This document shows, piece by piece, positions 16,107 to 20,165 of a DNA stretch of 64,000 nucleotides. A program made the position numbers and the translations under genes. Position 1 is the first letter of the stretch; each line of letters begins with the position of its first letter. The DNA lies in the NCBI GenBank assembly GCA_010015805.1, contig ML978121.1, positions 1,984,001 to 2,048,000 of the forward strand, given 5' to 3'. The notes beneath the pieces were generated by a model. It saw only the letters and a list, made by a program, of their open reading frames with translations, did not search any database and had not been told where the DNA came from. The DNA is from Rhizodiscina lignyota. Lineage: Eukaryota.

Positions 16107-19100
16107 ATGGCGACGACCTCCTCGATGTTTATGTACTCGCTCACAATCAAACCTCCGACCGCAATCACCCAGGCAGTGCAAGGACAATTCTCTGGCACGA
16201 AAGAGCAGCAACTCATAACTGCTTGTGGCTCATATCTGACGCTCTACCGGCCGGGCTCCACTCTAGGCAGCTTCAATCCCGCTCTGTCGCGAAATGTCTT
16301 CGGCATCATTCGAACCCTCTCCGCTTTCCGCCTGTCGGGAACAGCTAAAGGTACGTCGAACACACTCTTGCTCTTGAAGAGCTCCGTTAGTGATTTTTGA
16401 AAAGCGCGCCTAGCAGCACGACCAGACCGAGCGGATGGCGAAGGCTTGTTCGTGCTGCTAGCTACGGCTACTTTGTTATGGATGATACTACGTCTAATGT
16501 AGACATAGATTTCCTCATCGTAGGTTCCGACTCCGGCCGCATCACCATCCTCGAATACAAACCCGAAAAGAATACCTTCAAGCGTGTGCATCTCGAGACA
16601 TTTGGAAAGTCAGGAATACGGCGGGTTGTTCCCGGTCAATATTTGGCGACGGATCCAAAGGGTAGAGCCTGCATGATGGCGTCGGTGGAGAAGAACAAGA
16701 TCGTCTATGTGCTCAACAGAAATGCGCAAGCTGAGCTCACCATATCCTCTCCACTGGAAGCCCACAAGCCACAAACGCTAGTCTTTGCTCTGGTCGGGCT
16801 CGATGTTGGCTACGAGAACCCGATATTCGCAGCTTTGGAAGTCGACTACAGTGAGTCGGAGCAAGATCCGACGGGCCAAGCATATCTGGAAGTGGAGAAG
16901 CAACTGGTCTACTATGAGCTCGACCTTGGACTTAACCACGTCGTGCGCAAGTGGACAGATGTCGTCGATCGGACAGCGAATATGTTGCTCCAAGTGCCAG
17001 GAGGCAGCGACGGACCGAGCGGCGTTCTAGTGTGCGGTGAAGAAAGCATCACATATCGCCACTCGAATCAAGACCCTTTACGTGTCGATATTCCTCGACG
17101 CCAAGGTGCGACTGAGGACCCTGGTCGGAAACGCTATATCGTCGCCGGCCTAATGCACAAGATGCGCGATGATTTCTTCTTCCTGGTTCAGACCGAAGAC
17201 GGAGATCTCTTCAAAGTGAAACTCCAGATGGTCAAGGATGAGAACGAAAAGTCAACGGGCGAGATTAGGTGTTTGACGATCAAATACTTCGAAACTGTTC
17301 CTGTTGCGACAAGTATCGTGATCTTACGGAGCGGCTTTCTCTTTGTAGCCACTGAGACTGGTAAACAGCTCTTCTACGCGTTCGAAGATCTTTCAGAGGG
17401 CCCCGAGGATACGTATACCAGCGATGATTTCCCAGTGGATCCCAGAGAGCCCCACGAGCCTGTCTACTTCCGTCCCGGTCCACGTGGAAATATCTTTCAT
17501 TCTTCGACAATTGACTCGATGAACCCTGTCACAGACTGCAAGGTTGCCAACCTCTTACATGAGGATGCCCCGCAAATATACACGATCTCGGGTACTGGTG
17601 CCAGAAGCAATTTCAACATGCTAAAGCATGGTTTGGGGGTCGACGAGTTCGCCGAATCCGCATTGCCTGGCGTGGCACAAGCCGTGTGGACCACGAAGAA
17701 GGCGCGAAGCGACCCCTACGACTCGTACATTATTCTGACAATTTCGAACAATCAAACTTTCGTCCTCAGTTTAGGCGCCAATATCGAGGAAGTCACAGAT
17801 ACAGGATTCCTTACATCTGTCCCGACATTAGCAGTTCAGTTGCTGGGCGACGATGCTCTGCTGCAAGTCCATCCCAGGGGCATCAGACACATTCTACCTG
17901 ATGGCAAAGTGAACGAGTGGGGAGCTCCCCAACATCGTACGATTGTTGCGGCAACTACGAATGAGCATCAGGTCGCGATAGCGCTCAGTTCCGGCGAGGT
18001 TGTCTACTTTGAGGTGGACAACGAGGGTAACCTAGCGGAGTATCAGGAAAGACGAGAGATGGCTGCGACGGTCACTTGCTTGAGCTTGGGTGAAGTCCCT
18101 CCCGGTCGCATTCGAAGCGAATTCCTCGCCGTGGGATGCGCTGATTCCACCGTGCGGATATTCAGCGTGGATCCTGAGAACTGCCTCGAGGACAAATCCG
18201 TGCAGGCCCTGACAGCTGTGCCATCTGCCTTGCACATTATGCCCATGGCAGACACTTCGTCTGGCGGGCAAACTCTGTTTCTTCACATCGGTCTCCACTC
18301 AGGTGTCTACCTCAGAGTCATGATCGACGAAGTCACTGGCGATCTCTCAGACACTCGCACGAGATTCCTTGGACCACAACCAGTGAAACTCTCCCAAGTG
18401 TCCGCAAATGGCCAACCTGCTATACTGGCGTTGAGCTCTCAGCCCTGGCTCGGTTATGCAGAGCGCGAAACGCATGTCTTCAAGTTGACCCCTTTGAATT
18501 ACCGACAGCTTGAATGGGGATGGAATCTTCGCATGAGTGCAATTCCGGAGGGCATAGTGGCCATCACTGGAGACAGTCTTCGGTAAGCCACTGCTATGAT
18601 TTCTTGAATCTTGCGCGTTGCCTGATGAAAAATCTTCAAATCTCTGATCTTTGATGAGGATTGCTTTCTATTCCAATTGTTCCTACTGATCTGCCATGCC
18701 TCTCAATCATGGGTTCATCGACTTCATCATGTAGTGTACGGCAAAACTGACTCTTGTGACAGCATCCTCACGGTCGAGAGTCTCACGAGCAACCTTCTCC
18801 ATGAATCTATACCGCTTACATACACGCCTCGTCACTTTGTGAAACATCCGCATCTGCCTCTCTTTTACGTCATCGAAGCTGACAACAACACTATGGCTCA
18901 AGACACCCGCACGAAGCTCTTGTCCGGTCCGAACGTGGTGAATGGCGATGCAAATGTTCTGCCACCCGAAACCTTCGGCTATCCTCGAGGAAAGGGTCAC
19001 TGGGCGTCTTGCGTGGAGGTTGTTGATCCTTTCATACAGATCACAGATCCTACCACGGAGACAAAAGCGCCCTTGTTCACTGAACATTTCGAGCCCAACG

Positions 19101-20165
19101 AAGCTGCCATTAGCGTTGGCACCGTCACCTTCGCTTCCAAGGACGAAGAGGCCTTTTTGGTCGTCGGTACCGGCGTGCAAATGACCGCCTCCCCTCCATC
19201 CGACAAAGGCGGCTACATCCATCTGTTCCGCTTCGTAGACGAAGGCCGTAAGCTTGAGTGGATGCACAAGTCAAAAACGGAGGCTCCGCCTCGCGTCCTC
19301 CAGGCCTTCCAAGGCCGTCTTCTTGTAGGCATGGGCCGAGACCTGCGCATCTACGACTTTGGTGTGAAGCAGCTCCTCCGCAAAACGCAAGCCATGAACG
19401 TCGTCCCCAACCTCATCGTCGGTCTCGCAACCCAAGGATTCCGAATTGTCTGCGCAGACATCCAGGAGAGCGTCATGTACTGCGTGTACAAGTATCAGGA
19501 AAACAGCATCGTAAAGTTCTGTGACGACAGCATCGCTCGCTGGAATACCTGCTCCCCCGTCATGGTCGACTACGATACTGCTGCGGCTGGCGACAAGTTC
19601 GGCAACATCTGGTTCGTTCGTTGCCCGAAAGCTGTGTCCGACCTCGTGGATGAGGAGGGCAGCACGCATCTGGCCATGCAGAGGGAGTACCTCCAGGGTA
19701 CGGAACATCGGGTTGAGCTCATGGTGCATTTCTGTGTCCACGATATCCCGACTAGCGTCCACAAGACAAGCCTCGTTCCTGGTGGCCGTGATGTCGTATT
19801 ATGGAGTGGACTGCAGGGCACGCTAGGCATTCTGGTGCCGTTCGTGAGTAGGGAGGACGTCGAACTCTTCCAACAGCTGCAAAGCGAGATGCGCAAGAAT
19901 GAAGCGGAGCCGCCTCTTGCCGGAAGGGACCACTTGGCATATCGCAGCTACTATGCCGCTGAAAAGGGATGCATCGATGGAGATCTTTGCGAGCGGTTCG
20001 TCATGCTGCCGCGTGAGAAGAAGGAGGCCATTGCGGTGGAGCTGGACAATCGTAGCGTTCGGGAGATCGAGCGTAAGATTGCGGTAAGTCTCTTCTACTT
20101 CCTATGATGCAAGAACGGCGTACTTATCAATGTCACAGGATTTCCGAACGCGCGCCGCTTTCTAA
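16107..20165 (+). CDS. RSE1: Pre-mRNA splicing factor Rse1 / SF3B3 (SAP130)
   Basis: [67 protein letters not shown]. Introns 16351-16508, 18583-18762 and about 20084-20138. Confidence 0.97.
18620..18692 (+). ncRNA. Intronic box C/D snoRNA, predicted guide for 18S rRNA Am541 (yeast numbering; snR41/SNORD62-type site)
   Basis: Box C TGATGA 18623-18628, D' CTGA 18644-18647, C' TGATGA 18652-18657, D CTGA 18686-18689. The 13-nt guide TCCAATTGTTCCT (18672-18684) is complementary to 18S AGGAACAAUUGGA. Confidence 0.88.

What the first reader, a model, noticed from the sequence alone, without database searches (positions are those of the whole stretch)
18620..18692. Box C/D snoRNA hidden in RSE1 intron 2, predicted to guide 18S Am541
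Seen: complete C, D', C', D boxes inside a 180-nt intron, with box D about 73 nt from the 3' splice site and a 13-nt guide TCCAATTGTTCCT. Established: the D+5 rule puts the methyl on the first A of 18S GAGG[A]ACAAUUGGAG, which is yeast A541 (snR41; the human equivalent is the SNORD62 site). In budding yeast snR41 is in a polycistronic cluster and also guides Gm1126; here it is intronic. Its D' guide (AAAATCTTCAAATCT) matches no target I recognise, so it may have a new or orphan second target.
Basis: partly seen in the sequence, partly recalled or inferred. Interest (0 to 1): 0.7.

Follow-up and report, generated by a model that had tools for sequence, protein, structure and literature searches.

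The report
Intronic rRNA-methylation guide snoRNA in RSE1
An intron of a fungal splicing-factor gene holds a small guide RNA of a long-known family that most likely marks one conserved adenosine of 18S ribosomal RNA for methylation; it is real but ordinary, and its spare second guide region shows no sign of a target.

Summary
In detail: boxes C, D', C', D and a guide pairing 14 bp with 18S lie in the 180-nt intron 2 of RSE1/SF3B3, box D 73 nt from the 3' splice site. The D+5 rule gives yeast A541. The target is present in this genome's own 18S fragment. The stand-alone intronic form is already published: N. crassa CD13 (cloned, 18S-Am538) and S. pombe snR41-I, equated there with the 5' half of yeast snR41, plant snoR41Y and human U62. 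The Gm1126 half sits separately in this genome's cluster III, as in those species. Two other fungi (RSE1 41% and 62% identical) keep the same guide in the same intron. The 'new second target' is not supported: the D' segment is not conserved and pairs no better than shuffles (151 of 300) with surrogate rRNAs and this genome's snRNAs. This genome's rDNA array is not assembled and tRNAs were untested. I did not find RSE1 named as the fungal host gene in print. This scan noted the same snoRNA in other genomes before. Expression and methylation were not tested.

The parts
16107..20165 (+). RSE1/SF3B3 host gene; exons 16107-16350, 16509-18582, 18763-20083, 20139-20165; 1221 aa
   Evidence: Spliced model has one terminal stop; Pfam RSE1 propellers and CPSF_A; best named PDB match human SF3B3 E 3e-228 against DDB1 about 1e-21. 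The model rests on splice signals and homology, not on RNA reads.
18583..18762 (+). Intron 2 (180 nt, phase 2, in Arg773), host of the snoRNA
   Evidence: same position and phase in L012/L013/L023/L041 and L029
18618..18692 (+). Predicted mature box C/D snoRNA, about 75 nt (ends inferred: 5 nt before box C, 2-3 nt after box D)
   Evidence: ends inferred, not mapped
18623..18628 (+). Box C, TGATGA (preceded by C)
18629..18643 (+). Segment upstream of D'; no target found, not conserved
18644..18647 (+). Box D', CTGA
18652..18657 (+). Box C', TGATGA
18671..18684 (+). D guide, 14 bp (1 GU) with 18S; T18681 is D+5 and pairs with the A equivalent to yeast A541
   Evidence: own 18S fragment at G000:C1:118143-118155 minus strand
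18686..18689 (+). Box D, CTGA
18747..18751 (+). Predicted branch site CTGAC (A18750), 61 nt after box D
   Evidence: prediction from consensus

Best explanation
A single-guide box C/D snoRNA, the snR41-I / Nc CD13 / U62 type, encoded in RSE1 intron 2. Shown here: the boxes, the intron, the 14-bp guide-18S duplex with D+5 on the A541 equivalent, and the same guide in the same intron of two other fungi. Inferred from known snoRNA biology: it is transcribed with RSE1 pre-mRNA, Snu13/Nop56/Nop58/Nop1 assemble on the C/D and C'/D' motifs, the spliced lariat is debranched and trimmed to about 75 nt, and Nop1 2'-O-methylates the 18S adenosine. The D'/C' pair is structural and the segment before D' guides nothing. 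The Gm1126 function, fused with this one in budding-yeast snR41, is carried by a separate snoRNA in cluster III.
For: Boxes and intron. D guide 14 bp, -20.3 kcal/mol, methyl at nt 538/537 of two surrogate fungal 18S; 1 of 300 shuffles as good. Of 3 genome-wide matches to the 13-mer, one is the 18S fragment, one is this locus and one lacks box D, so it is the only exact candidate guide for this site. 5 of 31 metagenome pattern hits lie in RSE1, all in the same phase-2 intron, and represent two fungi with RSE1 62% and 41% identical to this one. Box D to 3' splice site is 62-78 nt in all three. Rfam snR41 aligns over the guide and box D. N. crassa CD13: cloned, 84 nt, intronic, D guide for 18S-Am538 (PMC2780460). 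S. pombe snR41-I: intronic, Am544 (PMC4138321 Table S2). Yeast Am541 is measured at 87-99% (PMC5199042). A Gm1126-type guide with an Afu_455 match lies at G000:C13 near 326.5 kb.
Against: No Rfam family reaches its cut-off here. snR41 scores 20.5 bits against a cut-off of 50, and snR61 scores higher at 23.9. SNORD62 does not list this locus among its 3 weak matches. Expression, splicing and methylation were not tested in this species. The only own 18S copy seen is a dispersed, partly degenerate fragment. The D'/C' boxes are perfect consensus here, more so than in the two orthologues (read by eye), which leaves room for an active D' site. Only two orthologous lineages were obtained.
Confidence: 0.86

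Rival explanations
1. Double guide with a young, lineage-specific D' target: in a variable part of this species' own rRNA, a tRNA or an mRNA.
For: D' and C' are perfect consensus boxes 4 nt apart. 14 of 68 fungal C/D families have a second guide that works only in some taxa (PMC5824354). This species' rDNA array is not assembled, so surrogates were used; tRNAs were not scanned.
Against: Best D+5-compatible pairings are 9 bp with 1-2 GU, -7.6 to -7.8 kcal/mol; 151 of 300 shuffles do as well on the 6483-nt target set. Own U1, U2, U4, U5, U6 give at most 7 bp with D+5 (U6) and 8 bp without it. Best ungapped identity to the orthologues' 5' halves is 6 of 15 and 7 of 15, reached by 976 and 633 of 1000 shuffles. 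The 12-mer complement occurs 10 more times in the genome, against 7-11 expected; none extends past 13 of 15.
Confidence: 0.07
2. Besides guiding Am541, the snoRNA or its RNP controls splicing of RSE1 intron 2, tying SF3b supply to ribosome biogenesis; this would explain why it stays in this intron.
For: Same intron position in three distant fungi. SF3B3 also hosts C/D snoRNAs in animals (PMC12309372). The minimum-energy fold pairs box C with downstream intron sequence. snoRNA-intron pairing has been reported in mammals (PMC10324135, search listing only).
Against: The intron folds no better than shuffles (z 0.88). snoRNA versus downstream-intron duplexes are not significant: 30, 102 and 80 of 500 shuffles as good, with different pairings in each species. 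Need for the snoRNA alone explains retention of the intron.
Confidence: 0.05
3. A chance match or a dead snoRNA relic.
For: Below all Rfam cut-offs. The 13-mer alone is expected about twice per genome by chance, and 26 of 31 metagenome pattern hits gave no RSE1 match and look like chance.
Against: Four boxes in order, 0 of 100 shuffles; guide and box D kept in an otherwise diverged orthologous intron; no other exact candidate guide in the genome.
Confidence: 0.02

Closest known systems
Neurospora crassa Nc CD13 (EU780937; Liu et al. 2009, PMC2780460)
   Same: Single listed guide, upstream of box D, for 18S-Am538; same core CCAAUUGUUCCU; intronic; separate from the Gm1122 guide CD9 of cluster III.
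   Different: 84 nt against about 75; the 5' half is unrelated by eye. Its host gene is not named in the parts I read, so I have not shown that it is rse-1.
Schizosaccharomyces pombe snR41-I (AJ617316; PMC4138321 Table S2)
   Same: Intronic, outside cluster III, guide for 18S-Am544 upstream of box D, same guide core.
   Different: Degenerate box C; a conserved T(A/T)AGGT stretch after box C that the window's snoRNA lacks; host gene not named.
Saccharomyces cerevisiae snR41 (Rfam RF01218, clan CL00068)
   Same: Same A541 guide core followed by CUGA.
   Different: Yeast snR41 is a double guide: A541 in its 5' half, Gm1126 in its 3' half, in the snR41-snR70-snR51 cluster. Here the A541 guide sits at box D, alone, in a protein-coding intron.
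Human U62A/B (SNORD62, RF00153) and Arabidopsis snoR41Y
   Same: Same SSU site (Am590, Am543; PMC3511168 table).
   Different: The RF00153 model does not pick up this locus; equivalence is by target.
SF3B3-hosted C/D snoRNAs of animals (PMC12309372)
   Same: Orthologous host gene carries intronic C/D snoRNAs.
   Different: Their families and intron positions were not compared here; no common origin is shown.

Membership tests
Box C/D methylation-guide snoRNA | Box C near the 5' end and box D near the 3' end, with internal D' and C' | tested here: met
   box C has C in place of the purine
Box C/D methylation-guide snoRNA | 10-21 nt complementarity to a target directly upstream of D or D', with D+5 Watson-Crick paired | tested here: met
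   14 bp, 1 GU, at box D
Box C/D methylation-guide snoRNA | Stable small RNA bound by Nop1/Nop56/Nop58/Snu13 that directs the methylation | not testable with these tools
   no RNA holder listed
Intron-encoded snoRNA | Lies whole inside a spliceosomal intron, on the sense strand, some distance upstream of the branch point | tested here: met
   61 nt to branch A and 73 nt to 3' splice site; 54-70 and 62-78 nt in orthologues; splice sites are predicted
snR41-I / Nc CD13 / U62 (SSU A541 guides) | Guide places the methyl on the A541-equivalent of 18S | tested here: met
   nt 538 of surrogate 18S L060, equal to N. crassa Am538; site present in own 18S fragment
snR41-I / Nc CD13 / U62 (SSU A541 guides) | Single guide at box D, with the Gm1126 guide on a separate snoRNA | tested here: met
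   no D' target; Gm1126-type guide at G000:C13 in cluster III
snR41-I / Nc CD13 / U62 (SSU A541 guides) | Same host locus as N. crassa CD13 (positional orthology) | not testable with these tools
   host gene not named in what I read; no N. crassa genome on hand
Rfam snR41 RF01218 (budding-yeast double guide) | Score at or above 50 bits; second guide for Gm1126 in the 3' half | tested here: not met
   20.5 bits; no Gm1126 guide in this RNA
Rfam SNORD62 RF00153 | Score at or above 39 bits | tested here: not met
   locus not among 3 weak matches in the genome; nothing at gathering in the window
Double-guide or orphan-guide C/D snoRNA | Conserved antisense element upstream of D' | tested here: not met
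   only two orthologous lineages, both distant

The most novel reading that the evidence does not exclude
The perfect C'/D' pair is active and the segment 18629-18643 is a young second guide for an RNA outside the set tested (a variable part of this species' own pre-rRNA, a tRNA or an mRNA). It would have arisen in a snoRNA that has sat in the same intron of a core U2 snRNP gene across distant fungi, and would be a guide caught at its birth.
Probability: 0.07. Interest if true: 0.5.

Novelty: new member of a known kind. Interest (0 to 1): 0.15.

Why it matters
It is a correct annotation that Rfam misses at its cut-offs, so it is a gap in fungal snoRNA models, not new biology. The one detail I did not find in print is that the fungal A541 guide sits at a conserved intron position in RSE1/SF3B3. 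That adds a splicing-factor gene to the fungal genes whose introns are kept with a snoRNA inside (RPL7 and NOG2 in PMC8476143), and echoes SF3B3 as a snoRNA host in animals. It would matter more only if a second target or feedback on RSE1 splicing were shown.

Tried and rejected
Rfam at gathering: 0 matches in the window. Weak matches to snR61, snR56, Afu_198 (minus strand) and others are box-driven and were rejected. Sequencing runs: no RNA holder listed. Laying the one listed run on a surrogate rDNA gave no result, so the species' real rRNA stays unseen beyond fragments. Viral contigs held no 18S motif and no RSE1 relative. No 5.8S was found in the genome; the LSU and SSU family searches gave fragments only and ran with a stricter first look. 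An 8-nt likeness between the D' segment and N. crassa CD20 (by eye) was followed up. CD20 is listed with a D target only, and this genome has its own CD20 homologue at C8 with a similar U/C-rich stretch in another register, so I treat it as coincidence. Extra base-pairing beside the A541 site (concept: PMC3116282): the D' segment gives one 8-bp run with 3 GU that overlaps the main duplex; the best extra run, 10 bp with 3 GU, comes from the spacer after C', also overlaps the main duplex and is not shared with L029. Control of host splicing by pairing: not significant. mRNA targets: at chance. Dropped rows: 26 of 31 pattern hits gave no tblastn match to RSE1 and were not followed; some could be homologues in other host genes. 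L012, L013, L023 and L041 (99-100% identical protein) were counted as one fungus. Mitrovich et al. 2010 (PMC3496775) is not held; the supplements of PMC5824354 could not be read.

Full report
Observation. The sequence is as described. Box C TGATGA is at 18623-18628 (preceded by C, not a purine), D' CTGA at 18644-18647, C' TGATGA at 18652-18657, the guide at 18671-18684 and box D CTGA at 18686-18689. The pattern box C + guide + box D occurs once in the window and in 0 of 100 dinucleotide shuffles. Rfam finds nothing at gathering thresholds in the whole window. In E-value mode the 5' half of the snR41 model aligns over the guide and box D at 20.5 bits, cut-off 50; snR61 scores 23.9 on boxes alone.

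Host gene. A four-exon model (16107-20165) translates to 1221 aa with a single terminal stop. Its introns are 158, 180 and 55 nt, all GT-AG. Pfam gives the two RSE1 propellers and CPSF_A. The best named PDB match is human SF3B3 at E 3e-228, against about 1e-21 for DDB1. The snoRNA lies in intron 2 (18583-18762, phase 2, in Arg773). Box D ends 61 nt before the predicted branch A and 73 nt before the 3' splice site. Splice sites are predicted, not seen in reads.

Main target. The 13-mer complement occurs three times in the 33.4-Mb genome: in an 18S fragment on C1, at this locus, and at a site on C4 with no box D after it. About two chance matches are expected. The main rDNA array is not in the assembly: family searches gave one 600-nt SSU piece, one weaker SSU piece, one LSU piece and no 5.8S. 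I therefore used eukaryotic rDNA found inside bacterial assemblies as surrogates, 94-96% identical to the best-matching 300 nt of the own fragment. The 3' third of the LSU came from L066, a eukaryote I did not identify. The D guide pairs 14 bp (1 GU, -20.3 kcal/mol) with the surrogates and with the own fragment. D+5 falls on nt 538 and 537 of the two full 18S; 1 of 300 shuffled guides did as well. This is N. crassa Am538, yeast Am541 (snR41, 87-99% methylated; PMC5199042) and human Am590 (U62; PMC3511168).

Other fungi. One pattern scan of metagenome contigs gave 31 loci. Five match RSE1 by tblastn; the other 26 do not and were not followed. Four of the five are one fungus (99-100% protein identity), L029 is another. 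Over about 500 residues around the junction their RSE1 is 62% and 41% identical to the window's and 49% to each other. Both have the intron at the same arginine and phase, 211 and 158 nt long, with box D 78 and 62 nt from the 3' splice site. The guide core and box D are the only long invariant block in the alignment (its gap placement elsewhere is poor). So the host intron is conserved over a wide distance, on three lineages only.

The D' segment. With the D+5 rule its best pairings are 9 bp with 1-2 GU in surrogate LSU (-7.6 and -7.8 kcal/mol) and 7 bp in own U6. On a 6483-nt non-redundant set (18S, 5.8S, LSU, own U1, U2, U4, U5, U6) 151 of 300 shuffles scored as well; the 9-bp/1-GU hit in L053 was outside that set. 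Without the rule the longest Watson-Crick run is 8 nt (own U4, U5). Its best ungapped match in the orthologues' 5' halves is 6 of 15 and 7 of 15, reached by 976 and 633 of 1000 shuffles. The published N. crassa and four Schizosaccharomyces sequences also differ there, by eye. The 12-mer complement occurs at 10 other places in the genome, against 7-11 expected from Markov models; none passes 13 of 15, and in 9 of 10 the longest reading frame is on the other strand. The tool's reversed-pattern control gave only 1 match, but 1-2 are expected for that word. Most fungal C/D families have one conserved guide (40 of 68; PMC5824354). Against my reading: D' and C' are perfect here, 14 of 68 families have a lineage-restricted second guide, the real rDNA and the tRNAs were not scanned, and no close relative was available.

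The other half of snR41. A Gm1126-type guide followed by box D, with a box C upstream, lies on C13 and matches Afu_455 (46.6 bits, cut-off 48), upstream of Afu_294 (57.8 bits). By eye its neighbours resemble N. crassa CD17 and CD6, i.e. cluster III. The second match, on C3, has no box C in the locus. This is the split described for N. crassa (CD13 and CD9) and S. pombe (snR41-I and -II, only II in cluster III).

Mechanism. Shown: anatomy, duplex, positional conservation, separation from the Gm1126 guide. Inferred from established snoRNA biology (my own knowledge, with the D+5 rule as stated in PMC5199042): co-transcription with RSE1, assembly of Snu13, Nop56, Nop58 and Nop1, release from the debranched lariat by exonucleases, and 2'-O-methylation of the paired adenosine. 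A role in host splicing was looked for and not found: intron fold z 0.88; snoRNA versus downstream intron 30, 102 and 80 of 500 shuffles as good in the three species.

What is known. N. crassa CD13 is a cloned 84-nt intronic snoRNA with a D guide for 18S-Am538, listed as homologue of S. pombe snR41-I, S. cerevisiae snR41, plant snR41Y and human U62A/B. The window's RNA works like these and meets their defining features; it fails the score tests for Rfam snR41 and SNORD62 and is not the budding-yeast double guide. I did not find RSE1 named as the fungal host: searches 'rse1 snoRNA intron', 'SF3B3 snoRNA host gene intron conserved' and 'prp12 snoRNA intron' were read as listings, and term searches in PMC2780460, PMC5033589, PMC8476143, PMC4138321, PMC3890542 and PMC3511168 had no hit for the gene name. 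The supplements of PMC5824354 and the paper PMC3496775 could not be read and may list it. SF3B3 is a known snoRNA host in animals (PMC12309372). Earlier notes of this scan report the same snoRNA in RSE1 introns of other genomes, one with a species-specific spare-guide match to 5.8S that relatives did not share; I saw them after my own tests.

What I saw of each paper. PMC2780460: passages with table rows, section 10, supplements 1, 3 and 6. PMC4138321: passages, Table S2 whole, rows of Dataset S1 and of file 5. PMC5824354: passages and part 1 of 2 of section 25. PMC3596301, PMC5033589, PMC8476143 (plus one supplement search), PMC12309372, PMC3890542, PMC2377427, PMC5199042, PMC3116282, PMC3511168: passages only. 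PMC10324135 and PMC8527467: search listing only.

Verdict. A real, ordinary single-guide snoRNA of a known family in a conserved RSE1 intron. The second-target idea is unsupported but not closed. Interest 0.15.

Noticed in passing
L007:8322-8381 (minus; G000:C1 about 118.3 kb) and L010:1447-1499, 1624-1677 (G000:C23): Dispersed rDNA fragments carry short spliceosomal-type inserts (GT...CTAAC...AG) of 60, 53 and 54 nt. Such introns in ascomycete rDNA are a described phenomenon (recalled; listing, e.g. PMC8527467). Surrogate L048 also has inserts in its 18S.
   Followed up: partly
G000 whole assembly: No intact rDNA unit or 5.8S was found, only degenerate SSU and LSU pieces; one SSU piece lies about 600 nt from the U2 gene on C17, with a weak U4-like match nearby.
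   Followed up: no
L043 (G000:C13:325022-328036, minus): snoRNA cluster III: a CD17/U45-like gene, the Gm1126 guide (Afu_455), a CD6/snR51-like gene and Afu_294, with intron signals between them. Names other than the two Rfam matches are by eye.
   Followed up: partly
L072 (G000:C8:1072458-1072474, minus): Homologue of N. crassa CD20 (26S-Um2372 guide) with boxes C, D' and D, apparently in an intron.
   Followed up: partly
published homologues, not the window: N. crassa CD13 has an 8-nt stretch after box C complementary to 18S 523-530, just upstream of the target, and four Schizosaccharomyces snR41-I keep a similar stretch. This may be extra base-pairing; the window's snoRNA lacks it.
   Followed up: partly
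window 18669-18680: The D-guide region can also pair 12 bp (3 GU) with a second AATTGGA-containing site about 35 nt upstream in 18S; D+5 is unpaired there, so no methylation is predicted.
   Followed up: no
L012 intron end: The orthologous intron in this fungus appears to end in AAG, not YAG.
   Followed up: no
G000:C6, C3, C2, C10, C15, C8: Seven U1-like matches, all below the Rfam cut-off, and two full U4 genes.
   Followed up: no
L045-L066: 22 GTDB bacterial assemblies hold eukaryotic 18S sequence, mostly close to this fungus's; probably contamination.
   Followed up: no
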